Assembly: GCA_004431415.1 (NCBI GenBank)
Contig: QPMI01000494.1
Span: 496,001 to 560,000, forward strand
Direction of reading: 5' to 3'
DNA: 64,000 bases
From: Cyanophora paradoxa CCMP329
Lineage: Eukaryota > Plantae > Glaucophyta
Shown: piece by piece, positions 11,178-34,507 of the stretch
How the letters are laid out: the number at the start of each line of letters is the position of its first letter
Position numbering within the stretch: position 1 is the stretch's first letter
Made by a program: the position numbers and the translations under genes
Notes under the pieces: generated by a model
The model's input: only the letters and a program-made list of their open reading frames with translations
What the model was told of the DNA's origin: nothing
Database searches by the model: none

Positions 11178-11717
11178 AAAAAATGAGATAGTGGGGGTTC
11201 CAGCCCACCCACCTCTTTCTCACCCTCACTCCTCCAAACCACCCCAACCCACACACTCCAACGCCTTCCAACACACATTCTCTTCCATCCCTTCGTTACG
11301 TCTACCACCACAACCTCTCCAAACCAACCATCCAGCAACCGCTAGGTAGTATCTAACGTCTAGTCCGATCGATTTTGCAAAAGATATAGCAGTGATTTTA
11401 GGCGGACCCCCAAAGCGCTGGTCTCAGAATAATCTTCAGATACAGCTAGACGTTAATTTTGTGTACTTTGAATCTAACAGAGAAAACATGTTTAGCTCAA
11501 TTCTAGACGATATTAATGAGTACAATGAAGCTAACAGAGGAAACACGTTTAGCTCAATTCTAGACGTTAGTTGTGTGTATTTCGAATCTAAAAAACAAAG
11601 AGGTTTCAAGGGTTAAGCTACACGTAATTACTATATCATCGGAATCTAATTACATACTCGAGTTCAGGTTCTAGCTAGACGCTAATTATTCCCACCGATG
11701 ACGTAGTCCAAGTTTAG
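11178..11717 (+). repeat. Left TIR of element 1 (contains ~57-bp tandem repeat at ~11446-11595)
   Basis: Reverse complement of 21193-21620 with substitutions and two extra 57-bp units; starts AAAAAATGAGAT. Confidence 0.9.
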
Positions 11718-12294
11718 TGAAACCACTTAACATTGGTTTGTATTCGATCGACGGCCCGACAGGATCAGCGCTGCTAGAGGCGATGCGCAAGATCGATGTG
11801 TTTGCTACAGGTAATTCGCTAGCATTCTCATCCACCTGGGGGATTGCGACGATCGTCTTAGCAGGAACAGCAGATGATGGAGGAGAAAGCTTTTTATCAA
11901 TTTTGGTCTTAGCAATCGGTTCGTTTAAAATCTTGTTTTCCATTTTCGTCTCAACCGCTATACCAGCAATAAGATCACCAGCACGCTTCTTTGAAATTGT
12001 TTTCAACCCAGTCACTGTTTTTATGAAATATCTGCTACGATTACCAGTCTCTGATACATACAGCGGACCATCGTCAGTATCCTTCAGTTTACTAGTTTTG
12101 CTTTTCTTTGTCCGCGAATTTGGGATCTTATCTAGAATAGCGTTTTCGTCAGCAGTAAGAGCAAAATCGATAGATGCTCCCTCACCACCAGCAGTCCGAC
12201 GAACTAAAGGATAAGATTCAGTATCACCGCTCAAAAATTCAATATTATTCTTTTTATTGGGTGAGTTTGTAAGTTTTCTAGAAGCCGAAGGCAT
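11686..12294 (-). CDS. Conserved basic hypothetical protein of the capsid module
   Basis: Clear homology to 27328-28109 (GIAVETKMENKI vs GIAKETKLENQI; LPVANTSILRIA vs LPIANKHILKIA; SGFTKLGL vs SGFAKLGL); both lie downstream of the penton gene. Confidence 0.8.
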   Translation of the reverse strand: MPSASRKLTNSPNKKNNIEFLSGDTESYPLVRRTAGGEGASIDFALTADENAILDKIPNSRTKKSKTSKLKDTDDGPLYVSETGNRSRYFIKTVTGLKTISKKRAGDLIAGIAVETKMENKILNEPIAKTKIDKKLSPPSSAVPAKTIVAIPQVDENASELPVANTSILRIASSSADPVGPSIEYKPMLSGFTKLGLRHRWE

Positions 12295-12356
12295 TTGTTT
12301 TAAATAAGGAACAGAAAAAAGTCGACAGACAAGCCAAGCGCATTCGCGAAGTGAAA

Positions 12357-13232
12357 TTAAGCAAAACTGCGATCAAACGGATGAAACTCACTATCTGTGT
12401 TTCTGATTGACGAGCGAAGTGATGCCTTTGTGTATGAAGAATCTTCAATTTCGAACTCGATAACGAATGAGAATTCAGTGTTAATAGCTGCAGTAAATCC
12501 ATTAAAATAACGTATTGACACATCAAGTTGTTCTAACTCAGAATTATGATCGACGGAAACAGGAACACGTTCATCAGATGTATATTTGATTAGCTCTCCA
12601 AATTTCGCATCGATATGAATCTTTGCCAACGATGTGTTTGTCCACTTATTTATTGTGTGAATCGAACCACGAATCTGATCGATATGTAGGAAGAGATAAG
12701 TATGATAAAGAAGATCAACAGGTATATCGCCAACGATAGCAAACGCATAATCAACAGCATCAACTGTGATTGGAGTATCTAGCTGTTCTGCAGATTCTGT
12801 AACAGCCTTTGTGAAGCCGAGCAGATTTGCGAGTTCAAGAGTGGAAAACGTTAGAGTAAACTCCGATTCACACAAGATTGTGATTTTCATTGAAACATCA
12901 TCAAAAACCGTTAAGAACTTGCGTTGGTAAGTAGAACCTAAATAACTGTATTGTTGCGTTTTCAAAAGAACATTCATGTAATTCGTAAGAGATGTTGGTG
13001 TGTATGATCCAGCTCGAAATAGGTTCGATCTAGTTTTAATGACGTTACTCGGATCGAGCGTAATGGTTGTTATTGAAGCATCAGCAGCTAGATTATACAT
13101 ATTGTGAAAAAGTTCTAGCGATTCAATTCTAGCCGACTTCACGTTTGCTAACGCCCGAGGTAGATTAATTTTGAAATTCGAGGACGTGCCTTCGAACCGA
13201 TCTCTAGAATCAACATTTACGCGGAGTTTCAT
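12357..13232 (-). CDS. Minor capsid protein (penton, single jelly-roll)
   Basis: N-terminal VNVDSRDR...SNFKINLP...NVKSARI and C-terminal LEQLDVSIRYFNG...FSFVIEF match the PLV/NCLDV penton pattern; adjacent to the MCP gene. Confidence 0.8.
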   Translation of the reverse strand: MKLRVNVDSRDRFEGTSSNFKINLPRALANVKSARIESLELFHNMYNLAADASITTITLDPSNVIKTRSNLFRAGSYTPTSLTNYMNVLLKTQQYSYLGSTYQRKFLTVFDDVSMKITILCESEFTLTFSTLELANLLGFTKAVTESAEQLDTPITVDAVDYAFAIVGDIPVDLLYHTYLFLHIDQIRGSIHTINKWTNTSLAKIHIDAKFGELIKYTSDERVPVSVDHNSELEQLDVSIRYFNGFTAAINTEFSFVIEFEIEDSSYTKASLRSSIRNTDSEFHPFDRSFA

Positions 13233-13276
13233 CTTTACAACAATATACGTGAAAATATTCTGTAATATATTATCAA
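13233..13276. promoter_or_regulatory. Putative bidirectional promoter between penton and MCP
   Basis: 44-bp AT-rich gap between divergent ATGs. It contains AATATTTTCACGTA on the minus strand (13246-13259). Element 2 has the same divergent layout. Confidence 0.5.
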
Positions 13277-14506
13277 ATGGCGCAAGCAGGAACTACTCTG
13301 AAAGAGCTCCTAACAACCAAAGGATCGAACGAGCTTTATCTATCGCCAGGTCTAACTGTCGGTGTTAGCCCAAAGTTTAAGCCTTTCCTTGAGACGATCC
13401 GTCCGCGAGGCAACTCATACGGATTCGCACAGACTGCTGCTTTCGACCTTCCGCGCAAGCAACTTCTAAATGGCGTCTCCCTATATTTTAAGGTAACAGT
13501 CGCTGGTGGAGCTGCCGCTTCGGTTCTTCCTAATGGTGCTGGTGCATTTATTGAAAACGTACGCTTTGTTCATGGATCTTTCAAAATGGTAATTCCCGGT
13601 GATTGGCTTACAGTGAACGCACTGATTGATAACAGCGTCGCATCCGCCCAAGCTTTTGCTAGCAGCTACGGCTTTGGAAAAGACGCAGCTCTAGAGATTC
13701 TCGATGCTAGCCGAGAGTACGTGCTGAAGATCCCATCACAGCTTTGGGACAATTCATATTTCCCTCTGCTAGCACTTGCGGATATGCCAACCGTCGAGAT
13801 TGACTTCCGTTCGGCTGGTGTGATTGGAACTGTTGCTGATGCTATTGCGACTCTAACGGATTGTGCCCTGGTTTGTCAGTTCGTGAATATTCCTAGCGAA
13901 GAGGCAGAGTCTATGCTAAAATCTGCGAACGAGTCTGGCGGTATTAGAATTCCCTTTACTGAAATCATTTCAAAGCGCTCACGCCAGCTTAAGACGGACG
14001 ACGCAGGAAACGCTGTCGAAATATCCCTTGCTAACGTTAGCGGCCTTGTGCACGCGATCCTGATGACAGTGCGTAATGCGAATCACCTGGGCACTCGCAA
14101 TCATAATTCATTTGCCGGTAACGGTAACGCTTTGAAGATTGATTCGTTTGAGATCATGCACAATAATCGCACTCTCGATATCAGCAATAAGCCAATCTCT
14201 GGGTTCGTTTCAAGCTGCTACCACATCCCAACACAATACCGCGGCGCAACCACTGGTAATTCAGCCCTAGGTTTCGAGGATGGAAACGTCTATGGAATTG
14301 TGCTTTCGAAATCTGGAAAGGATTCGCTACATAACGCTGTTCTTGGTTATACCGATTTCTTCAATTCCAGTAGCAGCTATTGCTCCCTCACAGTTACAGG
14401 TTGTACAAACACCGCACCAGCTGTCGTTGATTTCCATGTCCTACGGCACAATGTTCTAGTCATAAATTCATATCAAATGTCTACTCTAAAAGTAAGTAAC
14501 TTCTAG
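13277..14506 (+). CDS. Major capsid protein (putative double jelly-roll)
   Basis: 409-aa beta-rich protein between penton and A32 ATPase, strongly conserved with the element-2 copy. Inferred from context and size; the fold is not verified. Confidence 0.75.
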   Translation: MAQAGTTLKELLTTKGSNELYLSPGLTVGVSPKFKPFLETIRPRGNSYGFAQTAAFDLPRKQLLNGVSLYFKVTVAGGAAASVLPNGAGAFIENVRFVHGSFKMVIPGDWLTVNALIDNSVASAQAFASSYGFGKDAALEILDASREYVLKIPSQLWDNSYFPLLALADMPTVEIDFRSAGVIGTVADAIATLTDCALVCQFVNIPSEEAESMLKSANESGGIRIPFTEIISKRSRQLKTDDAGNAVEISLANVSGLVHAILMTVRNANHLGTRNHNSFAGNGNALKIDSFEIMHNNRTLDISNKPISGFVSSCYHIPTQYRGATTGNSALGFEDGNVYGIVLSKSGKDSLHNAVLGYTDFFNSSSSYCSLTVTGCTNTAPAVVDFHVLRHNVLVINSYQMSTLKVSNF

Positions 14507-15211
14507 ATGGATATTAAATTGTTTGATCCGACGGAAATAAAACTTCCTAAACGGTTCTTGTTTGTCGGCCCCACCAACTCGGGCAAAAGCACCTACGTAA
14601 AACACGTATTAAATGCAGTATCAAATCAACTAGACGATATTTACGTCTTTAGTACAACAGCATTTACTGGACAGTGGGATGATACGACTCGCAAGAGCAA
14701 TATTTACGAAGAATGGGATCCGGTTTCGGTTGAGAGTCTTCTAGAGCGTCAAAAAGAAAGACGACGCAAGAAAGATGAGCGCAAGATTGCAATCGTTCTA
14801 GATGATTTGCTCGATAATGACCTAGTAAACGTCCACAGCGATCGATTAATGCAAAAGCTATTTACTTCTGGCCGTCATTATAACACCACCCTTTTCATAA
14901 CGACTCAACGCCTTTGTGGCATCAGTCCAACGATACGAAGGAATTGCGAATATGTGTGCTTTTCGTCGATTCTCTCGAATATCAAAGAGTTCGATTGCGT
15001 CTTTGCCGAATACAACGCCGGAGCGAATCGAGCAGTTTTAACGCGTCTTTTCCTTGAATGGGGTCACAGCTATCAGGTTTTGATATTTGAAGCCGTGAGC
15101 GCGGACCGCGTCTACTCTGTTGATAAATCTTCTGGAGATTTTTCGGCTCTATTGCGCTTTGTGCACGCAAGAAAGCGGCGCGATCAAAAGCCGGTAACCA
15201 ATCCTGTCTAA
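14507..15211 (+). CDS. A32-like (FtsK/HerA) genome-packaging ATPase
   Basis: Walker A GPTNSGKS, Walker B IVLDD, and the GRHY...TTQ...IRRN motifs of A32 ATPases. Confidence 0.93.
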   Translation: MDIKLFDPTEIKLPKRFLFVGPTNSGKSTYVKHVLNAVSNQLDDIYVFSTTAFTGQWDDTTRKSNIYEEWDPVSVESLLERQKERRRKKDERKIAIVLDDLLDNDLVNVHSDRLMQKLFTSGRHYNTTLFITTQRLCGISPTIRRNCEYVCFSSILSNIKEFDCVFAEYNAGANRAVLTRLFLEWGHSYQVLIFEAVSADRVYSVDKSSGDFSALLRFVHARKRRDQKPVTNPV

Positions 15212-15374
15212 GCAACCAAGCTGTATATTCTGGACGTGCTGATGCGATCCACAAATAGGAGGCTCCTTTGTAAATGCCAAAGCTGATGCAATGACTTGGT
15301 GAAAGCTGACTCCTGCCTGGCCAAAATTCTTCTAGATTTAACTCTTCCTCTGTCGTTTCGAGTTCGAGTTCCAT
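14982..15374 (-). CDS. Small protein with FGxYKG...PEYxxWLL motif (QSregVF_b/ExoX-C-like)
   Basis: ISFGIYKGASYLWIASARPEYTAWLL resembles the FGKYKG small-domain family. Its 3' part overlaps the ATPase gene on the opposite strand. Confidence 0.5.
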   Translation of the reverse strand: MELELETTEEELNLEEFWPGRSQLSPSHCISFGIYKGASYLWIASARPEYTAWLLRQDWLPAFDRAAFLRAQSAIEPKNLQKIYQQSRRGPRSRLQISKPDSCDPIQGKDALKLLDSLRRCIRQRRNRTL

Positions 15375-15401
15375 TAAAAAGATAAAGGGGTGTTATTCCA
15401 T

Positions 15402-16655
15402 TCAATTAAACCGTGATTTCGATGTTTGATCTTTATAAGCATCTTCGAATGAATCATAATAACCGATTATCTTCTTGCAACCATTGATTTTGGTTTCTGC
15501 TTTCCATTTATCGGTTCGTTTGTCAAGGGAAACACGGACATAGTGGTTGGTGGGTCGGTGGATTCTCCTCCGGCAATGTTTCAGTAGAAGATACTCAATG
15601 TGTTGCTGGATTGCAAAGGCAACGTATATCGGAAGGTTGATATCGGTCATCTCTGACTTTTTCGTTACATCTACAGATTGCAATATATTTATGGCATATT
15701 CACGCGCTTCTACCTTGAATTCTCTTTGCGTAATATCCAGCGGTTTGGCGCCTGCTCTGAGCAATGGTTCAGCAGCAATTTCGAGTTTTTTTAGCTCACG
15801 ATCCTTCAGGTTTTGACCCGCATACGTTTTCGTTTCAACGAGACCCTCTCTCCGAAGCTGACGATCTTGCTTCGATCTAGCAGTCGCTCTTTCAATCTTA
15901 GACTGGTCAGGTAGTTCTTGTGGCGCACGAATCTCGGATGGTTTCACACGTCTAGAAATTTCCACACCTTGCTTTGTAATTAACCTAACACGGTTCTTAT
16001 CAACGCCAGCAACAACGTAGGTCTCTTTGCTTGGTTTCGCCAGACCCTTTGCGAACACGCTTGGCTTAGGTTCAAGGATCTGCACCTCCGTACCAGGTTT
16101 AGGCATATTTGTGTTCTCTCGTTCAATATCATTCTGTCGCTGACGAACTTGATGTAGCTGTTCGGCTACCTGTGTATTTTCACGCATCCACGTTGGTGAT
16201 CGCTCTTCACCAAATGCACTGTGTGCTGTTTCATTGTACGCCTTCAAAATCGCAGGCAAGCGGGAGAGGAAATGCGGGGAGCCGCGTGCCTCTGTGTCGG
16301 CCTGGATCAATGCTCGCAATGTCCTAGCGAACCTGTCGATAATTCCAAGTTTGTTACCTTTAGAAATGTGGTCATCTTTGGCAACATCAGTATGCATTTT
16401 CAACGAGTTATCCTCGGCCATTGCCCGAATTGCTGCTGTGTTAAAACCGTTGTCACCTGAAAATCCCCATATTCCAGGTAGCTGCTCGATCATTTTTGGA
16501 AGCTGCTTAAAAGTCTCGAGCTTACGGACCACAGCAAAGCGGGTTGCAATTTCGACCGCTGCAAACAGGCGATACCTCCCAATAAACAATACATCAATTT
16601 GCCAAGCTCCAGGTGGTGCTGTTATCGTGTACATTCTTCTAATTGTCACACACAT
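15402..16655 (-). CDS. Retroviral-like (rve) integrase with C-terminal AP2-like domain
   Basis: WQIDVLF, FSGDNGF, GIIDRFARTLR and YNETAHS match the Polinton integrase core; tail VSLDKRTDKWKAETKINGCKKIIGYYDSFEDA is AP2-like. First ATG at 16655 taken as start. Confidence 0.88.
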   Translation of the reverse strand: MCVTIRRMYTITAPPGAWQIDVLFIGRYRLFAAVEIATRFAVVRKLETFKQLPKMIEQLPGIWGFSGDNGFNTAAIRAMAEDNSLKMHTDVAKDDHISKGNKLGIIDRFARTLRALIQADTEARGSPHFLSRLPAILKAYNETAHSAFGEERSPTWMRENTQVAEQLHQVRQRQNDIERENTNMPKPGTEVQILEPKPSVFAKGLAKPSKETYVVAGVDKNRVRLITKQGVEISRRVKPSEIRAPQELPDQSKIERATARSKQDRQLRREGLVETKTYAGQNLKDRELKKLEIAAEPLLRAGAKPLDITQREFKVEAREYAINILQSVDVTKKSEMTDINLPIYVAFAIQQHIEYLLLKHCRRRIHRPTNHYVRVSLDKRTDKWKAETKINGCKKIIGYYDSFEDAYKDQTSKSRFN

Positions 16656-16732
16656 AAAAGTTTTTTGGTGGATATCGCGTGAATATGCCTTAAAAAGATT
16701 GTGATTGTGATTAATAATAAAGTGATATTGTA

Positions 16733-17023
16733 ATGGAGGTTGAAAACTGTTTGGCGCGCAAGCGTGGTCGTCCTCCAAAGTCTAAGTCTCCGGAAGTAAT
16801 AGAAGAGATGAAGAAGAAACGATCAGCAGCGGTAAAAGCTCGTTATCATTCAGATGAGGAATTTCGTAAGCGCAAGCTCCAAGCGACGTATGAGTATCAG
16901 GAAAGAAATATTGACCGAAAACGGGAGCAGTGCCGTAACTATCGACGTCGGCAAAGACAGTTGCTTCTAACTCTAATGGATAAGTTTGGTGCTCAATCGG
17001 TTGAGGTAGTTTCAGCGGCCTAG
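16733..17023 (+). CDS. Small basic AT-hook protein
   Basis: KRGRPPK AT-hook followed by a basic helical region; weakly similar to 28450-28704 (RYHSDEEFRKRK vs LYQSDDCYRSMK). Confidence 0.7.
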   Translation: MEVENCLARKRGRPPKSKSPEVIEEMKKKRSAAVKARYHSDEEFRKRKLQATYEYQERNIDRKREQCRNYRRRQRQLLLTLMDKFGAQSVEVVSAA

Positions 17024-17049
17024 TGGTTGGAGGGTCGCAGCTTCTTTTT

Positions 17050-20000
17050 TCAAATACGTGTGCGCCAGTGACCCAGAGCCAAAGTTTCAACGCCATCATC
17101 ACATAGCCAACGTTTTGTGTCTAACGGGTGTAGTGCTTGCTTTGAAGTTTCTTGCACGTAAACCCGATGTTTCTTTGAGCGCATCCCTCGAATTCCATTC
17201 ACTTCGCATGATAAGTATTTTTTCTGTCCATCTACATCTTTACCAAGTACACAATCAATATATCTTTCCCGTGTAAGCTGGTCGGCAAAGCTTTTAGAAA
17301 TCCCCTTGCATCGACGCTCTTGCTTACCACTGTCGATCTGATACCAATAACTCTTAGGTCTGTTCGCGATGAATTCTACCATTTGCTTACCATTGCACTC
17401 ATCTTTGAAATTGCCAAGGGCTGTCGATTCTTTCTTCATGGTGGCAATTTCTTCGTCCGACATTCCTGCAAAGAATCGATGTGACTCCGGATATTTGCTA
17501 ACATCTAAAAGGTGACTTATATTTTTCAGCTCAGCGTACAAATCATCTGTCTCAATTCTAAGGATTAGCGAGTCAGTATCCGTTGCAAGCAATTTAACAC
17601 GCGGACCCCAGAGCGGTTTTAGTTGCTCGTAATACATTTTAAACATGTGTAGTTTTGACATTTCCAAAACACTGAATCCACTGTATATCGGTTTGTTTAA
17701 TTTGACTTGTGAACGCCGCTTAGAGATAAATACAAGATCCTCATCATATTTGACAATTTGCTTCAATAAATTTGGTTGTGCGGCAATTTTTGACAGTCTG
17801 ACACTATCAGTCACAAGCTCCGCATCGCAATGCTTTCTCACGTTTTCCATATTTTTGCCGTATAATGCATTAGTCTTGAGTTTGAATAGATCTCGCACAT
17901 GATCAAAGGTTGCGGCCTGACGCATTTCGGCATTTTTTTCCACATACGGTTTCATCCAAGCAGTCTGCTTGTACGTAATAACACGATGAATTTTACTCAC
18001 CACAAAACCTTGACTTCTGTAAAATTTGAGTAGTCTCCCATCAACAACATATTTCTTCAATGGAAGCAGACTTGGAATAAGCTTTCGCGTCTTCATCTGA
18101 ATGCAATCCTTTTTAATCATATCCTGTTGTGATCTAGATAGCATCGTTGGATCTACAATCATTGATACTGGCGCAATCGGGTAATCATTAAATTTCTCGT
18201 GAAGCTCATCTGGAATGTAAGCATCAATTTCAAGCGTTGCTCCTATATCACCGTCATAATCGAAACCATCATGGTCAAAGGTTTCTGGATCAACCCATTT
18301 AAAATCTCCAATCGGATGTTTCTCTAACATCGCATATCCATACAACGAATTTGCATCTATATAGAACAGATATACTGATGGTTTGGATGGATCATAATCA
18401 ACCATGTCCTTATTGTTCGCTTTTGCATATCGATTTGACACCATTGAAATACCACCACGAATACCTGTCTCGAAGAATCTGAACATATCCTCTTGACCCT
18501 CATGCAACATCTGTAATTGCCCACCTGTATATTTTAGAGCAGCATCCCAACTAAAGCCTGGTAGTGACATGTAATATGCAGGATCTATTCCATCTGTAGC
18601 GCGAGATGTTTCCCGATATGCTTGAAACACGTCTGCTAGTAACGTTATATCCAGCTTCATATAAGCAATCGTGTAATCTAACAATGCTTTACATTTCAGC
18701 TTTTTCCAAACCTTCTGTGCGTGCTCATAATCTTCAGGCTTGCACTTTTCGTTTTTCAAATCATTGTGAAACGCCTCTATCGACGGTAGCTTACGGTCTG
18801 CAAGCCGCTGCCAGGAATTTACGTAGCTGTAGGGATAGATTCCCTTGCGTGTCATCAGATTAAATGTTTCCGCATCGGGACATAACTCGCGAGTTTGCTT
18901 TTTCAGATGATCTGGAAGCGATGCCGCTAGCTTTTCGAGCGTTGCTGATAGATGTTGCATGCTATCGCGAAATACGTAAATGCCGTATTCGATTTGACTC
19001 ATTTTCTCTGAGTTTTGAAACATCACTTCGAATCGCTTCGACAGTGGAGCCTCAGATCTCTCGATCTTGATTTTTTCTTTTACAAGCTGGTTCTTGATAA
19101 ATCCTGGAACTCGCTTCTCATACTCCTCAGCAGTTATGCTCAGTTTGTTCATCGTCCATTCCCTCACGCTTTGAGTTTGATATGTCTTCTCAAGACGTGC
19201 TCGGGTTGCTTCAAGTTTTTCATTCAACTTTTTCTTAAATTCAATGTGTGCGGCCTGTCTACGAACACTTCCCTTTGCAATTGCGCGGATCATCAAATGC
19301 GAATCAAATCCTCGAGCATTGTGAGCAATCAAGAAAACACGTTTTGATTTGAATCTTCTACGGTTGCAGCCAGGACAAGCAGCACCTTTGAAATCACCAT
19401 TATCGTGATCGTGGTCCCAAACCTTTTTTATCTTCTCGCTGAATTCAACGTTACAGATATAGCAACTAGTAGCTGAATCAAACGTTTGCTTTGCAACATC
19501 TGTTTTTATCGCTGGTACCGATGCATTTAGCCCTTTCTTTAAAGTTGGTTCCATTGAATCTAGCCATTCAACAAACCTCTCCTCACATCTACGTCCGCTA
19601 TTTACGTGCCAATATTTTGTATCATCATTGCCTGTGATCAAACATCCAACAGCAGCTGGTATTTGACATGCAATTTCCTCTGTCTTTCCATTTTTCACAG
19701 AGTTCGTAGACATTGCAAGTGTTTCAAAATCATAGGCTCCAACATATCGTGCCGTTATCGTATTCGCATGGTTCAGGAATTTCAATGTTGAACGGTCGGG
19801 TTTTGGAAGCACATCACGGCCATGTTCGTCTCGTTCGAGGCATCTGTCTTCTTCGATGTGTTTCTGAAGAGCATCATCACCGCGAAATCCTTTTTGACAA
19901 GCGAGACAATAGCTGCGTGCGTTCTTGTCAATTCCAGGACGTGCAAACATTCGGCTCACGTTCTTGATCCAAACGAAATGGCCATAGCTACCTTCACCAG

Positions 20001-25080: not shown

Positions 25081-25127
25081 TACAGTAAAGATATAAAAAA
25101 ACAGACAAAAGCGGCACGCTACCTCGT

Positions 25128-26350
25128 TTAGAAGTTGCTAACTTTGAGGGTCGACAGTTGATAGCCATTGATTACGAGGACATTGTGGCGAAGTGTGAAG
25201 ATATCCACCACAACCGGGTTCGCATCAGTGCAGCCATTAACTGTGAGGTTCATGTAGCTTGATGACGAGTTGAAAAAGTCTTGATATCCGAGAACCGAGT
25301 TGTGCAGCGAATCCTTGCCGGATTTGCTCAGAACAACACCATAAACGCTTCCCTCAGCGACTCCAACAGCCGCACCACCTGTGCTCGCACCCTTGTAGTG
25401 AGAGGGGATGTGGTTCACAGCAGAAAGGAAGCCTGAGATTGGCTTGTTTGAAATATCGAGGGTGCGATTGTTGTGGTAGATCTCGAAGTTGGTGATGTTG
25501 TAGGTTTCGCCCTTGCCATAGAAGCGAGAGTGGTTAACCGTTTTCAGATCCGCATTCTTTCGGACTGTAAGCAGAACCGAGTGGACGAGCCCGCTCACAT
25601 TAGCAAGCGAGACCTCAGTCGCAGTGTCGGCATCCGCCGTTTTCAGTGGGCGGGTTTGCTTGTGGAGAACCTCAGTAATTGGGATGCGAATGCCACCCTC
25701 TTCGTTTGCCATTTTAAGCAGTCGCTCCGCCTCATCAGAGGAAATGTTAACGAACTGACAAACGAGATGGCAATCGCTCATAGCGATGGTAGCATTTAAA
25801 GCAAGAGTTACAACAGTCGAAGCCCGGAAATCGACCTCAATTTGGGGCATCTCAGCAAGTGCACAGAGGGGGAAGTAAGAGTCGTCCACATTTGCGAGGG
25901 GATCTTAACAATAAACTCGCGAGAAGTGTTATTAAGAACAATAGCGGCATCATCCATGCCATAGGAGGTGGCGAGAGCACCCAGAGTTGAGGGATCGTTG
26001 TCGACGATGGTGTTCACAGTGATCCAGTCACCGGGTAACGTAAGTTTAAAACCGCCATGGACGATTCGGACATTTTCAATGAAGCTACTCGCACAGTTTG
26101 GAAGGGTAGCGTTCGCACCACCACCACCAGTGAGTTTGAAGTAGAGGGAGAGACCGCTGAGTAGCTGTTTGCGTGGGAGGTCAAAGACCGCAGTAGAAGC
26201 AAAGCCAAAGGTGTTGCCACGAGGCTTGACTGTTTCAATGAATGGCTTATATTTCGGGTTGGCGCCAATGACCAGACCGGGGGATAGATATAGTTCGCTC
26301 GAATTGGGGGTGACGAGGAGCTCTTTAAGAGTGGTTCCAGCGAGCGCCAT
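25128..26350 (-). CDS. Major capsid protein, split by a single-base frameshift at ~25886
   Basis: ORFs 25808-26350 and 25128-25889 together align end to end with 13277-14506; adding one G restores SQMW-DDSYFPL (element 1: SQLWDNSYFPL). Confidence 0.8.
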
Positions 26351-26402
26351 TGTTTACTAATCGTGAACAAAATAATTTATACACGGATAGTAACGAACAC
26401 AA

Positions 26403-27298
26403 ATGGGAAAAATACTAATCAATATCGATTCCAGGGATCGCGAAGCTGATTCTACCAGTTCCGCGAATTTCCGCTATAAACTTCCCTATCCGGTGAAGCG
26501 AGTCAAATCTTGCAGAATCACGAATTTTGAGCTATTTAATAATCTATACAACCTCACCACAGATGGAACCATTACCACAGTCACCTACGATAACATCAAT
26601 GCCCAGAAGACCCGGACAAACACCTTCAAAGCCGGAAATTACGACCCCACGAGCCTTGTTAATTACCTTAACGTTCTGATTGGCACACAGCAGTATGCGC
26701 AGAATGGAGGTGGAACCTACACCCGCAAATTCAAAGTGTTCTACGACTCAAACACCATGAAACTAAGGATCCTTTCAAATGAGGCATTCGGTCTCCGGTT
26801 TGCCTCGCTTCCAGTGGCAAACTTTACAGGATTCCAGGTCGCTGACAAACTGTATTTAGGTGCAGTGTTGGCAGTAAACGAAACCTATGATGCACTCGTT
26901 TACACACACGAATTATATTCGGAGGTTCCCTCGACCTTCTGTATTACTCATACATGTTGCTCCACATTGAGCAGCTACGAGGCACTGTGATCAGTCGCAA
27001 CCCATCCGATTGCTATGCAATTGCAAAGATCATTCTCGACCAGCAGGTCGGAGCCCTGTTAAAATACGAGGGTTCCAATGCAACTATGGTGGCATCTGAC
27101 ATGATTGACCGCGAGCTTGAATACCTCGACATCGCACTGAAATACTATAATGGGATTCAGGTCACCTTGCACAGCGATTGGAGCATGACGCTTGAAATCG
27201 TCACTGACGATGGTGGGAACAGAAACAAGAAAGACCTCAAAGCTATATTTGCCGATTTGCAGGATCACCTCCTCCCATTCGATAGGTCATTTTCGTAA
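26403..27298 (+). CDS. Minor capsid protein (penton), split by a frameshift at ~26930
   Basis: INIDSRDRE...NFRYKLP start; adding one C gives VPLDLLYYSYMLLHIEQ, matching IPVDLLYHTYLFLHIDQ in element 1. Confidence 0.8.
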
Positions 27299-27327
27299 AT
27301 TAATATCGCACCCTAAATTAAGAATCA

Positions 27328-28109
27328 ATGCCGCGTCAAGCTACCGCCAAACCACGCAAAACCAAACCGAAAGATTACCTCAGCACGCCGGCAAGTGTGG
27401 CAGACGTGGATACCCCACTAAATTTGGAAGAGGCAAAGCAGACAAAGCCAAAGCTGTGTATCACGTTGGTGATATTGAGCGCGATGTCCACTCTTCGCGA
27501 AACGAGTTCATTCAAGGACAGATCAGTGATCGAAACGATGCGAACGCTTTGATTGATGAAGTCCCGCTGAATAAGATGCCCGGTAACAAGAGAGGACGAA
27601 AGAAGGGAACGATCATAAATTCGACAAAGGAACGAATCGCTTCAAAGAAAGTATTACTGAAAGAGCTCGATATCGGCAACGTGTATTCGGTGCAGACAGG
27701 CGATCGCTACCGCTATTATCTTGCGAAGCCAGGCAAGGGCATATCCAGTCTCACACGAGCCAGTGCGAAAGAATTGGTGGAAGGCATTGCCAAAGAGACG
27801 AAGCTCGAAAACCAAATCATGGAGCAAAAGATCACGAAGGAAAAGGTGGACGAAAAGCCAACTGTGACCGCTGAGGTCTTGACTGATCCAATCGCGCCAG
27901 CCATTAGCGCTACACCTGATCAGTTAATTGCGAAAACGATCGCACTACAAGACACCAACACCGCCACCAATCTCCCGATCGCAAACAAGCACATCCTGAA
28001 AATCGCCGCCTCGACAAGCGAGCCGCTTAACTCCATTCCCCGCGTGTCCCAGCCATTTATTAGCGGATTCGCAAAGCTCGGATTAAAGCCAGGTTACAGG
28101 AGGCTCTGA
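27328..28109 (+). CDS. Conserved basic hypothetical protein (homolog of 11686-12294), probable frameshift at ~27451
   Basis: ATG at 27328 (MPRQATAKPRKTKPK) joins the homologous downstream frame if one A is added to the AAA at 27450-27452. Confidence 0.7.
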
Positions 28110-28449
28110 GCCGACCTTAATATTTTCTCGCCCAATAGTAGCGCTACGTAACAAGAACCTATCTCGTAGTGAGTGCTCGCGCATTTTATCCTTTTTTTCG
28201 TAGGATCCATGTGCGTTTCGTTTAACACCTGTTCTACCGGGTTCATTGGTAGAAACTTGGGCGCCCCCGACAAGTCAGCCCACATCGGGCATCGGGGGCA
28301 GCAATGCAAGCTTGCCTTTGCGCAAGCGCTTATTTTTGTAGCTTCTACCGGTTGTAGGGGTCAAAAATTGATTACGTTCTGAAAAAAGGTATATCAAAGA
28401 AGAAAATCATTTAAAGATTTCTTGCTATATAGTAGCAGAGGTTGAGAGA

Positions 28450-28704
28450 ATGACGACAAGTGCGGCTCAGAAGCGTGCAAATGCTAATTACCGGGCTACC
28501 GGGAAAGGCAAAATTGCGCTCCAAAAGAACAAGGAGAAAATGCGAAAAAAGGTTTACGAGCTTTATCAATCTGATGATTGCTATCGCTCGATGAAAATCG
28601 TTCAAGCAAGTCACCGTGCGTATTCCAACAATGCGATTTGTTTCGTGAAATTCTTGTTTGGCGTTCCCTATAATAATGTCGGTCGCCCATCTAAGTATAT
28701 CTAA
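28450..28704 (+). CDS. Small basic putative DNA-binding protein
   Basis: TSAAQKRANANY start, Lys/Arg-rich; possible counterpart of 16733-17023. Confidence 0.55.
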   Translation: MTTSAAQKRANANYRATGKGKIALQKNKEKMRKKVYELYQSDDCYRSMKIVQASHRAYSNNAICFVKFLFGVPYNNVGRPSKYI

Positions 28705-28910
28705 ATCCTTTTTCTCGGCGCGATTGAAGCTGAGGAAACGAATGCGCAACCGCGCTAAATAAAAATTGCTTTCGTGTTATTTTTCGAGCTTGTTTATCGA
28801 GCCAACCCTTTTGTTATTTTTGTGAAATTTCCGTCGGGCAAAAAATGACGCAGAACTGAAAAAATGATTTAAGGATAATTTTCTTTGGATATATATAAGA
28901 ACGCAACGAG

Positions 28911-31900
28911 ATGCCTCGCCCTTCCAACCGGTTGATCAGAAAGCTTAATGAAGACACTATTGGTTACACTACTATGAGTCTTGTTCATGGATTGATGACA
29001 ACAGAGCAAGCTAACCTTATTCTCAATGCGATAGCCAGGCGAATTACGTTAAAAACGGCAAAAGATTGGAATGACACAGCAAAGGGAATTTACGAGAATA
29101 ACCTTACAAAGCGCGAGGTGGGGGATGAGTTCCAAAGATTGGGTGCTATCGACGTTCCCCAGGAACTAACAGACCAGCGCCCGCAACGCAACACCAAGAC
29201 ACATATTAGCCGGTTCCAGAAGCTGATGAAAAATCTAAAAGAGAAAATCGAGAATTTAGAGGGCGACACTGTGACTATGTATTTTCGTATGTATCGGTTG
29301 ATTGTGACAAAAGCCCCCAAAAACGTAAGGGTTGTGGAAGAATGGGGTGACAGATACTACCAAGTTCTCAAAGACAGAAAAGACGGTTCATTCCATTCGG
29401 TTAAATTGAAGAAAGACCTTTTCATAAAATCCCTCGATCTTGTGAACAGACCATTTACCAATGTCCCATGTTTCGAAAAAAAAGCAATCAAACAATTCAT
29501 TTTCGAAAACATGCAGTTTGGTAATAGAAACCCAGACTTAATCTATTTGAAAAACGTTCACACAGGCACATACAGTGATGTCCTGACAATCGAGAAGATA
29601 AGACCCGAGAACGATAATGAGTTTATCCCCAGGATCGACCAGATCTTACGAGACTATCAAGCGCCTATGATCCCATCTAAGTATCTTACTTACGAATTTG
29701 ATGTTAACTCAAAGTCATTCAGTGATTTCTTTGATAAAACGAAGAACAAGGAATTGAGAATTAAATCATGTGTGCATGATGCTATCATTGCTGTGTTTGC
29801 ACCAGCGTTTGAAAAAGCCAAAGATTATGGGCGCTACGTTTCTATCAAGCTGAATCATGCCTTCTTGTTCAAATTGGTGCATGGTCGGGATCCAGTTGAT
29901 GGGGACGATATGGGATTATCATTACGACAAATTACCGATGCATTTCTGAAGCCATACAAGCTTTCTATGATAGTAGTAGACGAGAATGATAAAGTGGACT
30001 ATGCCCTATCCTATATTCCTGTGGATGCAAACGGAAAGAGAACGAGGAACAAATTCCTCCGACCATCCACCATGTATGTAAAAGTGCAAAATGGACACAT
30101 GTATTTGCTCAATAATAATGTTGAGAGCCTCATCCAATCTTTCAATGGATCTAAGCCTACTGAAAAAGATATGCCGTTGGGTTGTAGATACAGGCTAAGA
30201 AGAAACGATAACAACAGTGGTAGTTTTTTCGCAGCCAATGAGGATCATATTGTAGGTATTCTCCAATCAGATGAGGCAACAAAAAAGAACCTTATCCGCA
30301 TCAATTACGGTGGTGCAGGTGGTCTCACTAAATTGTATGCTTCCTTCCTGACAGTGCATAATTACATAGCTGATGCCAGAATTTCGGTTCTCGGATCCAT
30401 CCAAAGCATAAGGTTCAAGTATCAGAACAAGGATGTCATCATTATACCTGTGTGCCCAGAAGTCGAAGTTGAGACAGCTTACCACTTGCAGTTCGAGAAC
30501 TCAGAGCAGCGGGATGCATTCACCAAATATAATAACATGTTCTACGAAGCATTAATTAACAGATCCTTGAAGAGTTCCTACAACGAAAACACACGAAATG
30601 CTTTCGTGGTTGGTTCTCAGAGTGCCTTAAATGGTCGCTTTGAAGATTCCGCCGAAATCATTAAGGATTTGAATGATGGGTGCCTTAAAGTGTTCGAACA
30701 CGATGGGTGCAAAGCGTATGCAGGTCATGTTAATTCATTTGAGTATTTCCCGGTATTTAGCGAATTCGATGACTTTAAGGATGTGTCCATACAATCAGTT
30801 GCCGATGTGGAACCTTACAGCTTCTACTACGTGACTTTGAAGAAAGGACAATACCTTATTAAGAAGGACTCTAGTGGAAAGGAGTGGGTGCAATATAGAT
30901 ATCCCAAAGCAAAGCGAATTCTCATAGATTCACCATGTAACCTGATCCCAGGGATCATGCTCAAAGAATACTTCGATGACCTGATAGACATAATCGATGT
31001 AAAATACATCTTAAAACCATATCGAATTGTCAAGAACGTTGTTAAATATGTTATCAAACAGATCTTAGAGAGCAACCTTAGCGAAACTGAGAAGAAGCAG
31101 ATTCTTGTAAGTATTATTGGAATGCTCGGGAAACAAAAGAATCAGAGATCGCGAACCAAACCGTTTTTCCTAAAATCGGATGCTATCGAGTTTGCCAGAA
31201 AGCATGGTGGCGACGTCAAATTACTGTGGCTCGGTGAGAAGAAGCCCAAGCAATCCACAGAAGCCAAAACCGAATCTCAAATCAAAGTCTCAAACTATGA
31301 AAAATGGATTCAAGCTTATGAAGAACGAAAACAAAAGAAAAATCAGGTTAAACCCGAAATTGAAGAAGAACATGCAATTGAAGATTACGAAAACCCCGAT
31401 CGCATTGTTGCAGCTGAGGAGATAACAGACCCACACATTTGGTATGTGGAGAAAATAGAAGAAAGGCTACTAAAAGATGGATTCCTTCCGATCCAAAATA
31501 TGGTCTATTCAAAACAACGAATGGATCTGTATAAGAAGTGCAGGGAATCAAAGGGTGTCATTATGGCTCTTAAAGTTGATGCAGTCTATGAGGCAATCGA
31601 CGAAAGCTTAGATGTAGAAGAAGTTAAATTCGATCGCACGAAGTATGAGAATATCGGACGTTTCAGCACGAAACCTATATCTTTCAATGAGTATTGCAAT
31701 AAGATCTTACAGAAGAAGCACGAGACTAAGAGGACAAATGGAATGATCCGATTTTTCAAGCCGGAGAGACTGAGGGATTTCGTTACTGTGAGAAAGAATG
31801 ATTGCACAGCATACACGGTTCCCGATGAATTTGACACGAAAGCGATATGTGATATGATGCTCTCCAAAGGGAAAGGCATAAGAATTGAGGGAAATGCCCC

Positions 31901-33191
31901 AGGAACCGGAAAGTCGTATGTGAGCAAGGCGATCGGTGCCAAATTCGACAGTTGCTTATATATCACGCCCACTAACAAGCGTGTCAAAGAAATGAAAGTC
32001 GAAGATGGTTTGGAGAATGTGATGACCATTCATGGTGCGTTCAATCTGAAAATCGATGATTCCCAAATGGACGATGTTGTGGGTGCGAATGCAAGCAAGA
32101 TTGCACCTTATCAATGCATTGTTATGGATGAAGGCTACCAGCTTAGCATACCACAGCTTGCAGCACTGAAACACATGATGAAAGTCGCCTACCCTGACAA
32201 GACCTACATTCTGAATGGTGACCCGTTGCAAAATCCACCTATTCAGTTCCTTAGTGTGGATCAGAAGGAATATTATAACGAGATCTTTGAGCAGCTCTTC
32301 CCGAGCTTGTTAGAGTTGCATGTGAATAAGCGCCACATTTTGCCAGAAGATCGCGAAAAGATTCTCGAATGGAAGCAAGATTTATTCGAAAAGAACATGG
32401 ACATATCCGCATTCCTTGCAAAGCATAACATACCTGTTATTTCGCCTGATCAGTTGCGACCTGACGATAGAGCTATTACTTACACAAACCGCAAAGCAGC
32501 ACAGGTTAATGCTATGATCCACCGCATTAAGTATGGTATAGATACGCCAACTCATTTTAAAGGGCTCGAAATTATAGCAAAGCAGCGCCTGACGAAAGGG
32601 AAGACGGCAGATGACGAGAGTGTAATCATCCATAATGGATTCTCGTATATCATCGAGGATCTGAACGAAACCACGCTTACGATTTCAGACTACGCAGATG
32701 AAAGCATTAAAATAACGCTTCCATACGATTCAATCAAGCATTTCACGCTTCCCTATGCTAATACGTGTCACGTTGTGCAAGGTGACACGGTAAAAAATAA
32801 GCGGGTGGTTGTTTTCGAGGCGCAATCGCCCCACGTCACCAAATATTGGTTGTGGGTCGCACTGACCAGGACACCATATTTGAAGGACACCGTGATTTGT
32901 GTGGATGAAAGCGAGATCTATGATATGGGCGCTTTCAAATCAAGAATGCATAGACTGATTCAAGGTTATAAACATCAAGACAAGGTTGCAGGTCGCGATT
33001 TCGTCGAATCTATGTATGTTACTTATCCATGGATAAAGCAAAGATTCGGAATTCAGAATGGGCTTTGTTGGCGATGCTACCAAATTATGGGTTACGATGA
33101 GGTCTCGGTTGACCGCGAAAACAATGCGGTCGCTCATGTTATCGGTAATATTTCCCTCTCTCATATTAAGTGTAACTGTGCGGCTCAGTGA
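28911..33191 (+). CDS. Multidomain replicase: vOTU-like + derived PolB-like palm + SF1 helicase + HNH-like domain
   Basis: SF1 motifs GNAPGTGKS, IVMDE, GDPLQNPPI, NKRH, TCHVVQGDT, WVALTR (strong). PolB-like HDGCKAY / KQILVSIIG / LKVDAV in A-B-C order (moderate). SCVHDA...NGHMY vOTU-like; C-terminal CWRC...SVDRENNAVAH...N...CN. Confidence 0.8.
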   Translation: MPRPSNRLIRKLNEDTIGYTTMSLVHGLMTTEQANLILNAIARRITLKTAKDWNDTAKGIYENNLTKREVGDEFQRLGAIDVPQELTDQRPQRNTKTHISRFQKLMKNLKEKIENLEGDTVTMYFRMYRLIVTKAPKNVRVVEEWGDRYYQVLKDRKDGSFHSVKLKKDLFIKSLDLVNRPFTNVPCFEKKAIKQFIFENMQFGNRNPDLIYLKNVHTGTYSDVLTIEKIRPENDNEFIPRIDQILRDYQAPMIPSKYLTYEFDVNSKSFSDFFDKTKNKELRIKSCVHDAIIAVFAPAFEKAKDYGRYVSIKLNHAFLFKLVHGRDPVDGDDMGLSLRQITDAFLKPYKLSMIVVDENDKVDYALSYIPVDANGKRTRNKFLRPSTMYVKVQNGHMYLLNNNVESLIQSFNGSKPTEKDMPLGCRYRLRRNDNNSGSFFAANEDHIVGILQSDEATKKNLIRINYGGAGGLTKLYASFLTVHNYIADARISVLGSIQSIRFKYQNKDVIIIPVCPEVEVETAYHLQFENSEQRDAFTKYNNMFYEALINRSLKSSYNENTRNAFVVGSQSALNGRFEDSAEIIKDLNDGCLKVFEHDGCKAYAGHVNSFEYFPVFSEFDDFKDVSIQSVADVEPYSFYYVTLKKGQYLIKKDSSGKEWVQYRYPKAKRILIDSPCNLIPGIMLKEYFDDLIDIIDVKYILKPYRIVKNVVKYVIKQILESNLSETEKKQILVSIIGMLGKQKNQRSRTKPFFLKSDAIEFARKHGGDVKLLWLGEKKPKQSTEAKTESQIKVSNYEKWIQAYEERKQKKNQVKPEIEEEHAIEDYENPDRIVAAEEITDPHIWYVEKIEERLLKDGFLPIQNMVYSKQRMDLYKKCRESKGVIMALKVDAVYEAIDESLDVEEVKFDRTKYENIGRFSTKPISFNEYCNKILQKKHETKRTNGMIRFFKPERLRDFVTVRKNDCTAYTVPDEFDTKAICDMMLSKGKGIRIEGNAPGTGKSYVSKAIGAKFDSCLYITPTNKRVKEMKVEDGLENVMTIHGAFNLKIDDSQMDDVVGANASKIAPYQCIVMDEGYQLSIPQLAALKHMMKVAYPDKTYILNGDPLQNPPIQFLSVDQKEYYNEIFEQLFPSLLELHVNKRHILPEDREKILEWKQDLFEKNMDISAFLAKHNIPVISPDQLRPDDRAITYTNRKAAQVNAMIHRIKYGIDTPTHFKGLEIIAKQRLTKGKTADDESVIIHNGFSYIIEDLNETTLTISDYADESIKITLPYDSIKHFTLPYANTCHVVQGDTVKNKRVVVFEAQSPHVTKYWLWVALTRTPYLKDTVICVDESEIYDMGAFKSRMHRLIQGYKHQDKVAGRDFVESMYVTYPWIKQRFGIQNGLCWRCYQIMGYDEVSVDRENNAVAHVIGNISLSHIKCNCAAQ

Positions 33192-34255
33192 TGGATACAG
33201 TGTTATCATACAAGAAATACAGGCAGAAACTAATTAATGAAGGTGTAAGTTTTGACGAGGCGAAACTAAAAAAACAGTTCGAGAACTCGGAACTACAACA
33301 GATTTTCAAGAAACCAAAAAGACCAAAGAGCTTTTTACGCATTGTAGCGAGACCCCGATCATTTCAAGTAGACATTATGTTTTTTAGAGGATTTCAAACA
33401 GCGAATAGAGGCATTGGTAAGGCGCTTAGTTTCATTGAGATTTTGAGCAGGAGAGCATTCGTTTATCCTTTCAAAGAGTCTTCCGAAATTCAGGGCATTT
33501 TAGATAGGTTTAAGCAGGATGCCGGGAAAGTTGTAGGATTGGCGGGAGATAATGAGTTTTCACAGAGAGTTTATCGTGAATGGTGCAGCGCAAATGGTGT
33601 GGAACTCTACACAGATGTAGCAAAAGACGACCACATTTCGGTAGGCAACAAGTTAGGTATCATAGATAGATTTACGAGGACTTTTAAGCAGTATCTGAGA
33701 AAGGCAATGATTGCAAAGGGAAGCTCGAAATGGCTCGATTTAGTAAAGGAAGTTTTAGACACATACAACAGTTCCCCACATTCCTCTTTGAAAAACGACA
33801 CACCAAACAATGTATATAATAGTGACCACAAGCAGCTATATATTTACTTGCGGGATTCAGTGCATAACGACCAAGTGAAAGATACTGAACAAGTTGATGT
33901 GAAACAAGGCGACACTGTTCGGGTGTTGGAGCCCAAAGGGATATTTGATAAAGAAGGTGCAAGGTTTAGCAAGAAAGTATATACAATTGGTGCAAAAGAT
34001 AACAATAGGTTCAAAGTATTAGAAAATATGGATGGAGAAGTAAAGGAAGTTAAGAGACGTTTTAAAAAGAACGAGTTACAGAAAGTGAGTAAGGCTGATG
34101 TTATTAAGATTCCTGATCAAAAGAGGATTATAAGAGTTGCGAAAACGAATGAAGTAAATCGCAAATTAGCGAAAGAAGGGATCAAGCCGAATCGAAAGAA
34201 TGTTGTAAGGAAGAAGTATAATCTGAGAAGTAAAACGATAAAGCAATCGAGGTAA
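33191..34255 (+). CDS. Retroviral-like (rve) integrase
   Basis: FQVDIMF, LAGDNEF, GIIDRFTRTFK and YNSSPHSSL; shares TDVAKDDHISxGNKLGIIDRF with the element-1 integrase. Confidence 0.92.
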   Translation: MDTVLSYKKYRQKLINEGVSFDEAKLKKQFENSELQQIFKKPKRPKSFLRIVARPRSFQVDIMFFRGFQTANRGIGKALSFIEILSRRAFVYPFKESSEIQGILDRFKQDAGKVVGLAGDNEFSQRVYREWCSANGVELYTDVAKDDHISVGNKLGIIDRFTRTFKQYLRKAMIAKGSSKWLDLVKEVLDTYNSSPHSSLKNDTPNNVYNSDHKQLYIYLRDSVHNDQVKDTEQVDVKQGDTVRVLEPKGIFDKEGARFSKKVYTIGAKDNNRFKVLENMDGEVKEVKRRFKKNELQKVSKADVIKIPDQKRIIRVAKTNEVNRKLAKEGIKPNRKNVVRKKYNLRSKTIKQSR

Positions 34256-34507
34256 GTGGGAAATGGAAATGAAATATGATAAAGATGATAAAGATGTAAT
34301 TGTAGCCATGGCGTGAGTTTTTTGTTTTTGTTACTGAATATCGTCAGGGGTTTAATGAAATGATTGATGATATCAGTGAGTCAGTGGGAATATCTCGATT
34401 GAATTTATCGATGAAAAGTATGTATTACTGAATATCGTGGGGAATTCGAATGTATTTGTATTATTTCGGGATTTTTCGTTTATGTAGCCATGGCGTAATA
34501 CTCCACT
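34171..34507 (-). repeat. Right TIR of element 2
   Basis: Inverted copy of 23656-23992. Confidence 0.95.

What the first reader, a model, noticed from the sequence alone, without database searches (positions are those of the whole stretch)
11178..34507. Two sibling miniature Polinton-like viruses: shared capsid and integrase chassis, swapped replication engine
Seen: two complete TIR- and TSD-bounded elements of ~10.4 and ~10.9 kb, 2 kb apart. They share a syntenic four-gene module (basic protein, penton, divergent MCP, ATPase) and closely related integrases. Their TIRs are unrelated, the module sits in opposite orientation relative to the replicase, and the replicases differ (canonical pPolB vs PolB-like/SF1/HNH fusion). 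Known: Polintons and PLVs are usually ~15-25 kb and are modular. Inference: a compact, possibly undescribed family of integrating viruses in which replicase and termini exchange as a unit under one capsid type.
Basis: partly seen in the sequence, partly recalled or inferred. Interest (0 to 1): 0.88.

Follow-up and report, generated by a model that had tools for sequence, protein, structure and literature searches.

The report
Two compact algal Polinton-like proviruses
Two unusually small (about 10.5 kb) integrated DNA viruses with related capsid genes but different DNA-copying enzymes sit side by side in what is likely the alga Cyanophora paradoxa; the capsid type and this kind of gene swapping are already in print, but the small size and the likely loss or swap of the copying gene alone were not found described.

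Summary
Real, and a variant of a known kind. Both elements are confirmed: 10,442 and 10,852 bp, unrelated TIRs, target-site duplications, low GC, and the inner junctions are bridged by independent short-read contigs. The 409-aa protein folds as a double jelly-roll, nearest to NCLDV capsids (Z 27.7). E1 has a full pPolB; E2 has the motifs of the known Tlr1-type pPolB-SF1-HNH fusion. Corrections: the integrases are only 29-32% identical; the capsid block is permuted, not inverted, relative to the replicase; E2's broken capsid genes are probably assembly errors. A near-identical MCP (about 98.6%) is already listed as a Cyanophora paradoxa viral MCP in Bellas 2023's supplement. Replicase swapping under one capsid type, including tandem pairs, is described in two 2026 preprints. 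Contig depth suggests that within each family the replicase has only about 45-65% of the copies of the capsid and integrase genes. So the replicase alone, not replicase plus termini, seems to be the variable unit. What stays new: an unnamed, deeply divergent capsid lineage (3 relatives among 1.84 billion proteins) in genomes below the reported 14-40 kb range.

The parts
11178..21619 (.). Element E1, 10,442 bp, TIR- and TSD-bounded
   Evidence: left flank and first TIR bases on one single-copy contig in 4 of 4 runs
11178..11717 (.). E1 left TIR (540 bp, with an internal duplication); partner 21193-21619 (427 bp), 84-96% identical
11686..12294 (-). E1 basic protein, 202 aa, no known family; 36% to E2 counterpart; core or DNA-binding role is a guess
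12357..13232 (-). E1 putative minor capsid (penton), 291 aa; fold not verified
   Evidence: model failed, pLDDT 32.8; top PDB profile hit PBCV-1 P1 at E 0.32
13277..14506 (+). [quoted passage not shown]
   Evidence: model pLDDT 64.9, pTM 0.71; Foldseek E 6.6e-17; VIA Z 27.7; near-identical MCP in Bellas 2023 Table S2
14507..15211 (+). E1 A32-like packaging ATPase, 234 aa
   Evidence: Pox_A32 E 4.3e-9, above the curated cutoff
14982..15374 (-). E1 orf130, unassigned
   Evidence: only a weak NCBIfam ExoX C-terminal hit, E 0.049
15402..16655 (-). E1 RVE/DDE-type integrase, 417 aa; N-terminus about 45 aa shorter than E2's; C-terminal tail matches HNH-endonuclease PHROGs
16733..17023 (+). E1 orf96, small basic protein
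   Evidence: weak likeness to E2 orf84, E 0.034
17050..21093 (-). E1 full protein-primed PolB, 1347 aa: vOTU-like Cys/His motifs, exonuclease I-III with an EndoVII insert, Pol A/B/C
   Evidence: motif scan; Endonuclease_7 E 2e-6; 36% to a metagenomic pPolB
21620..23655 (.). Single-copy high-GC host spacer, 2,036 bp
23656..34507 (.). Element E2, 10,852 bp; TIRs 23656-23992 and 34171-34507 (337 bp, 100%); exact 6-bp TSD
23942..24211 (-). E2 RING-finger protein, 89 aa
   Evidence: zf-RING_2 E 0.0017, below the curated cutoff
24316..25080 (-). E2 A32-like ATPase, 254 aa
   Evidence: Pox_A32 E 2e-10
25128..26350 (-). E2 major capsid gene, in two frames in the window; probably an assembly error
26403..27298 (+). 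E2 putative penton gene, in two frames in the window; probably an assembly error
27210..28109 (+). E2 basic protein; 5' part uncertain
28450..28704 (+). E2 orf84, small basic protein
28911..33191 (+). E2 Tlr1-type pPolB-S1H replicase, 1426 aa: vOTU-like motifs, palm-like A and C motifs, SF1B helicase, C-terminal HNH-like; no exonuclease motifs
   Evidence: motif scan; AAA_19 E 1.8e-8; RecD2 E 1.8e-6
33191..34255 (+). E2 RVE/DDE-type integrase, 354 aa
   Evidence: rve_3 E 1.5e-4; IS481 E 7e-6

Best explanation
These are two TIR- and TSD-bounded, about 10.5-kb elements with a related double jelly-roll capsid module and different replicases, likely integrated Polinton-like proviruses of the glaucophyte Cyanophora paradoxa whose replicase gene is likely swapped or lost independently of the capsid-integrase chassis. 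Shown: boundaries, gene content, double jelly-roll fold, motifs of both replicases, multi-copy status in the host's runs. Inferred from the known families: the RVE integrase inserts the linear genome and makes the 5-6 bp TSD; a terminal-protein domain, released by the vOTU, primes replication at the TIR; E1 copies with a proofreading pPolB and E2 with an exonuclease-less palm plus SF1 helicase; ATPase, MCP and penton package the DNA with no maturation protease. Inferred history: an old common capsid ancestor (MCP about 61% identical); the Rep-then-INT cassette moved to the other side of the capsid block, as expected from tandem integration and capture by new ends; replicase replacement or deletion continues within each family.
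For: Fold. Host and prior catalogue: 5 differences in about 370 residues, compared by eye, to gene_58741 in Bellas 2023 Table S2; the window's left-hand PTR plus H_lectin protein fits a C. paradoxa PLV protein noted by Bulzu 2025. Replicases: against the architecture. Depth relative to a single-copy contig: E1 capsid about 11-14x, integrase bins 11-18x, PolB 5-7x, TIR site about 19x in 3 of 4 runs; E2 penton/Rep 1.5-1.7 and INT/Rep 1.5-1.6 in 4 of 4 runs. Loose ends at 28811, just upstream of E2 Rep, in 4 of 4 runs. The same integrase subfamily sits directly behind a full pPolB in two metagenomic contigs. The published table of 156 glaucophyte PLVs shows 0 proteases, 0 tyrosine recombinases, 85 rve, and mixed replicases (49 PF03175, 34 SF1, 40 PF08706; columns counted by me).
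Against: Contig depth is not a copy number (the tool's own warning), bins sum overlapping contigs, and most joints and loose ends were hidden. The replicase deficit could be deletion derivatives or same-class alleles under 85-90% identity. The penton fold failed. The Rep palm rests on loose motif patterns: my patterns for motif B and the Walker A did not match, and these were seen by eye only; no fold or profile hit for the palm. E1 vs E2 differ in everything (INT 29-32%, TIRs unrelated), so this pair alone cannot say which part moved. No evidence of virions or activity.
Confidence: 0.72

Rival explanations
1. One reading: replicase and termini (with or without the integrase) form one transpoviron-like cassette that is exchanged as a unit under one capsid type.
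For: TIRs are unrelated and replicases differ between E1 and E2; the integrases are the most diverged shared genes (29%); the replicase is followed by the integrase in both; Barth 2026 argues that pPolB, DDE integrase and ends act together; Haro 2026 links end type to replicase type.
Against: Within each family TIR (E1) and integrase (E1, E2) depth follow the capsid genes, not the replicase. It may still describe the old E1/E2 split.
Confidence: 0.2
2. No ongoing swap: two anciently diverged families with fixed replicases, and the depth gap comes from non-autonomous copies that deleted the replicase and use a helper.
For: Elements lacking detectable replication genes are known (VC40). Depth cannot tell deletion from replacement. 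E1's TIRs are decayed and this copy differs from the majority contig by about 3% in part of PolB.
Against: No joint skipping a whole replicase was among the rows shown (9 and 19 joints hidden). The loose end upstream of E2 Rep runs into other sequence. Glaucophyte PLVs carry at least three replicase classes.
Confidence: 0.3
3. They are reduced or decaying remnants of larger (15-25 kb) PLVs rather than a naturally 10-kb lineage.
For: E1's TIRs are imperfect; E2 has split genes in the window; no fibre, lipase or methyltransferase gene, which many glaucophyte PLVs have (left-hand element).
Against: Both are 88% coding, have TSDs, nearly the same size despite deep divergence, and E2's TIR is perfect. 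Run contigs do not support E2's breaks. Depth is continuous across both.
Confidence: 0.12

Closest known systems
Cyanophora paradoxa endogenous viruses in Bellas et al. 2023 (PMC10120064; 366 MCP hits in two unnamed 'new' clusters, 21 and 29 as I count the columns) and the 156 glaucophyte PLVs tabulated by Bulzu et al. 2025 (PMC12220804)
   Same: Near-identical MCP (about 98.6%, by eye) already called an MCP by HHpred (96.9%, ascovirus MCP); a sibling MCP type is listed too; no protease, rve integrase, mixed replicases.
   Different: Neither main text describes the lineage (0 and 1 mentions of Cyanophora); no size or gene plan was seen. Table S5 was cut and Dataset S1 maps are images, so they may already show such elements.
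Tlr1-like pPolB-S1H replicases of PLVs and transpovirons (Krupovic et al. 2024, PMC11161782)
   Same: TP-vOTU-palm-S1H order, no exonuclease, C-terminal HNH, paired with RVE integrase as in Tlr1.
   Different: No sequence homologue found for E2 Rep; here in a 10.9-kb element with a capsid module.
Polintons/Mavericks (Polintoviricetes)
   Same: E1 has pPolB plus RVE integrase, TIRs and a 5-6 bp TSD.
   Different: No Ulp1-type protease, smaller, MCP cluster not labelled Mavpol.
Mosaic polisuviruses (Barth et al. bioRxiv 10.64898/2026.10.13.758929; Haro et al. bioRxiv 10.64898/2026.07.28.741278)
   Same: Tandem homologous capsid modules with different replicases; mobile replication and integration genes within one host; a tandem C. 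paradoxa locus (EVE_QPMI01_83) is cited.
   Different: Their quoted tandem pair is PolA vs AEP; here full pPolB vs pPolB-S1H. Whether EVE_QPMI01_83's 'transpoviron-like' elements are this family could not be seen.
NCLDV-like PLVs (Zora, Zephyr, VC40, Alpensee) and mriyaviruses (Bellas and Sommaruga, bioRxiv 10.64898/2026.06.19.733378)
   Same: NCLDV-like capsid; pPolB or PolB-SF1 replicases occur in the Zephyr group.
   Different: Those are 15-45 kb; no glaucophyte member is mentioned; no HUH or VLTF hit here; their HMMs were not available.

Membership tests
Polinton-like viruses (broad sense) | Double jelly-roll MCP | tested here: met
   VIA Z 27.7, rmsd 3.1, 333 aligned to PBCV-1 capsid; Foldseek E 6.6e-17
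Polinton-like viruses (broad sense) | A32-like packaging ATPase | tested here: met
   Pox_A32 above the curated cutoff in both
Polinton-like viruses (broad sense) | [quoted passage not shown] | tested here: inconclusive
   model pLDDT 32.8; weak top hit PBCV-1 P1, E 0.32 (that P1 is the penton is recalled)
Polinton-like viruses (broad sense) | TIRs, integrase and 5-6 bp TSD | tested here: met
Polinton-like viruses (broad sense) | Reported size 14-40 kb (descriptive, not diagnostic) | tested here: not met
   10.4 and 10.9 kb vs ranges
Polintoviricetes | pPolB plus RVE integrase | tested here: met
   E1 only; E2 has pPolB-S1H motifs
Polintoviricetes | Ulp1/adenain maturation protease | tested here: not met
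   no protease hit among the 18 element proteins scanned; unassigned ORFs are at most 130 aa apart from the basic and penton-like proteins
Polintoviricetes | Maverick-Polinton-type MCP by profile or tree | not testable with these tools
   no Polinton/PLV MCP set held; the C. paradoxa clusters carry no group name in Table S4 as I count the columns
Virophaviricetes | Virophage-type MCP and cysteine protease | tested here: not met
   Sputnik Z 15.4 and mavirus Z 14.9 vs 27.7 for PBCV-1; no protease
Tlr1-like pPolB-S1H replicase (E2) | SF1 helicase, C-terminal HNH, no exonuclease | tested here: met
   (HNH and absence of exonuclease by motif pattern only)
Tlr1-like pPolB-S1H replicase (E2) | vOTU and pPolB palm with TPR1/TPR2 by structure | tested here: inconclusive
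   motif-like Cys/His and palm A and C only; not folded
Mriyaviricetes and Mriya-like groups | HUH endonuclease, VLTF2/3, Mriya48, 20-45 kb | tested here: inconclusive
   no HUH or VLTF Pfam hit and size far smaller; Mriya48 profile not held, basic protein unassigned

The most novel reading that the evidence does not exclude
An unnamed glaucophyte lineage of minimal (about 10.5 kb, 8 genes) integrating double jelly-roll viruses with an NCLDV-like capsid, smaller than any reported PLV group that keeps capsid, replicase and integrase, in which a single replicase slot is being refilled (full pPolB, pPolB-S1H, perhaps others) while termini, integrase and capsid stay together; some published 'transpoviron-like' Cyanophora elements may be members whose capsid module was missed.
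Probability: 0.4. Interest if true: 0.65.

Novelty: new variant of a known kind. Interest (0 to 1): 0.45.

Why it matters
It extends the size floor of self-contained integrating capsid-encoding DNA viruses of eukaryotes to about 10.5 kb and gives two well-bounded reference genomes for a capsid lineage that so far is only a number in a supplement. In a cultured alga it makes an open question testable: what moves when small DNA viruses swap replicases (the gene alone, or gene plus integrase plus ends), since several related copies sit in one genome. The swapping principle itself is already published, which caps the surprise.

Tried and rejected
No whole genome is held, so the copy survey and TIR-vs-replicase test could not be run directly; contig depth stood in. 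Word-seeded homologue searches: MCP none, E2 Rep none, MCP alignment only P0003. IMG/VR scans with MCP, PolB part, ATPase pair, integrase pair and P0001: no relative in 5 of 5. Metagenome scans: ATPase none, integrase 2 loci. These scans need exact 7-8-residue words and show no absence. PDB sequence searches were uninformative. The penton model failed. The Atlas gave no answer for the MCP or E2 Rep; on the homologue P0002 it gave Capsid_N/Capsid_NCLDV clusters at 0.98 with low recognition (a lead only). No RNA holder listed. No tRNA or Rfam match. No terminal hairpin of note in E1 or E2 ends. The four-taxon integrase tree is unrooted with two near-identical tips and decides nothing. Trees against Polinton/PLV/virophage sets were not built for lack of reference sets. 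Earlier scan notes: nothing in 3 of 3 look-ups. Rejected: misassembly of the pair (bridging contigs); 'inverted module'; 'novel fusion'; identity with the Oxyrrhis fusion, which has helicase plus a complete pPolB.

Full report
OBSERVATION. Both elements are in the sequence. E1 (11178-21619, 10,442 bp) and E2 (23656-34507, 10,852 bp) are about 42.6% GC in a host of 61-64% GC and lie 2,036 bp apart. E2 has perfect 337-bp TIRs and an exact 6-bp TSD. E1 has imperfect TIRs (540 and 427 bp, 84-96%) and a 5-bp exact TSD, or a 6-bp one with a mismatch. Such matches arise by chance at 5.7e-4 and 1.8e-3. A sensitive blastn between the elements hits only the MCP, integrase and ATPase genes, not the TIRs. 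The arrangement is not an assembly artefact: single contigs bridge E1's right end, the spacer and E2's left end in 3 of 4 runs laid, and E1's left flank runs to the TIR on one single-copy contig in 4 of 4. E1 is held by 20 listed runs (17 studies) of one organism.

GENE CONTENT AND CORRECTIONS. The shared block is basic protein (36% identical), penton-like (32-45%), MCP (59-65%) and A32 ATPase (39%). The integrases are only 29% identical over 283 aa, though they share a 20-of-21-residue block. Two metagenomic integrases are closer to E2's (39-40%) than E1's is (32%), and sit directly behind a full pPolB that is 36% identical to E1's. 'Closely related' is therefore too strong. The capsid block is not inverted relative to the replicase: the MCP is antiparallel to the replicase in both. 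Read in the replicase's direction, E1 is PolB, INT, [ATPase, MCP, penton, basic] and E2 is [ATPase, MCP, penton, basic], Rep, INT, a permutation. E2's MCP and penton genes are split in the window; contigs of 4 of 4 runs differ from the window by one-letter indels at those places, at full depth for the penton gene, so these are probably assembly errors.

CAPSID. The E1 MCP has no Pfam, NCBIfam or PHROG hit and only 3 relatives at E<=0.001 among 1.84 billion representatives (27-30% identity), one from Cyanophora paradoxa. Its model (6-row alignment, pLDDT 64.9, pTM 0.71) matches iridovirus and PBCV-1 capsids (E 6.6e-17), with VIA Z 27.7 to PBCV-1 against 15.4 Sputnik and 14.9 mavirus. No Polinton or PLV MCP appeared among the PDB rows listed, so 'nearest to NCLDV' does not place the lineage; the best BFVD hit is an unnamed 413-aa protein (TM 0.70). 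The penton model failed.

REPLICASES. E1 PolB has vOTU-like Cys/His, exonuclease I-III with an EndoVII insert, and Pol A, B, C motifs. E2 Rep has vOTU-like motifs, palm-like A and C, SF1 motifs (Walker B, III-VI), a C-terminal HNH-like motif and no exonuclease motif (the patterns were mine, from recalled family motifs, and two failed to match). This is the TP-vOTU-PALM-S1H(-HNH) protein of Tlr1, PLVs and transpovirons (Krupovic 2024, section read), not a new fusion.

WHAT MOVES. Contig depth, normalised to single-copy flanks, is a rough guide only (the tool says it is no copy number, and most rows were hidden). For E1: capsid genes about 11-14x, integrase bins 11-18x, PolB 5-7x, a TIR site about 19x in 3 of 4 runs (35x in the fourth); capsid/PolB 2.2-2.9 and INT/PolB 1.6-2.2 by bins. 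For E2: penton/Rep 1.5-1.7 and INT/Rep 1.5-1.6. All four runs show a loose end at 28811, just upstream of E2 Rep. So in both families a share of copies keeps capsid and integrase but lacks this replicase at 85-90% identity. That fits the title (capsid-integrase chassis, variable engine) and argues against 'replicase and termini as a unit'. Replacement and deletion cannot be told apart here.

HOST AND PRIOR WORK. Bellas 2023 (passages, section 9 and supplement rows seen) lists a C. paradoxa MCP that differs from E1's at 5 of about 370 residues (by eye), confirmed by HHpred, plus a sibling type, and counts 366 MCP hits in two unnamed clusters; its main text does not mention Cyanophora. Bulzu 2025 (passages and supplement rows) tabulates 156 glaucophyte PLVs with no protease, 85 rve integrases and several replicase classes, and notes a PTR-H_lectin protein like the one at window 2903-6445. 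The host is therefore very likely C. paradoxa. Barth 2026 (parts 1-4 of 5) reports widespread replicase-capsid reassortment, tandem homologous capsid modules with different replicases, and a tandem C. paradoxa locus. Haro 2026 (passages, section 7) shows the same within one host. Bellas and Sommaruga 2026 (parts 1-3 of 5) describe NCLDV-like PLV groups of 15 kb and more without glaucophytes. Starrett 2021 (passages) mentions adintovirus-like C. paradoxa contigs. Also seen: PMC12721341 part 1 of 7, passages of PMC13215967, PMC12695648 and 10.1101/2022.05.02.489867, none describing these elements. Searches found no account of 10-11-kb members. Figures, Table S5 (cut) and bioRxiv supplements could not be seen and may bear on this.

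MECHANISM. Shown: boundaries, genes, fold, motifs, several copies. Inferred from the families: RVE integration with a short TSD; protein-primed replication from the TIR after vOTU release of the terminal protein; packaging by the A32 ATPase into a protease-independent capsid; permutation by tandem integration and capture by new ends, as proposed by Barth. Autonomy versus dependence on a giant virus is untested.

VERDICT. A real pair of compact Polinton-like proviruses from an unnamed, already catalogued capsid cluster; new variant of a known kind; interest 0.45.

Noticed in passing
window 1-8514: End of a third, much higher-copy low-GC element (summed depth about 25-190x single copy). It encodes fibre-like proteins (956 aa H_lectin; 1180 aa PTR plus H_lectin; 354 aa C1q) and seems to end at 8514 in ...ACT. 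Probably a larger C. paradoxa PLV, making three viral insertions within 35 kb.
   Followed up: partly
window 11173-11177, 21620-21625, 23650-23655, 34508-34513: Both TSDs end in CAGC (host frequency about 0.6% per site); possible target preference of this integrase subfamily, n=2.
   Followed up: partly
window 16318-16391 and 33611-33684: The integrases share a 20-of-21-residue block with Asp at the position that I recall as the Glu of the DDE triad; the metagenomic relatives share it.
   Followed up: partly
window 34508-34740: E2's right flank is a 23-24-bp G-rich minisatellite (D11) of very high depth, with similar words on the left flank; E2 inserted at the edge of a host repeat.
   Followed up: no
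window 17809-17850: Loose ends show another, more diverged pPolB-like sequence in the same runs.
   Followed up: no
L001:1-1443, L002:71-1948: Two 30% GC metagenomic contigs with a pPolB-then-integrase cassette related to E1 PolB and E2 integrase; too short to show a capsid.
   Followed up: partly
window 45373-45650: 34-bp AT-rich tandem repeat (7 copies) in the GC-rich flank (D12); not examined.
   Followed up: no
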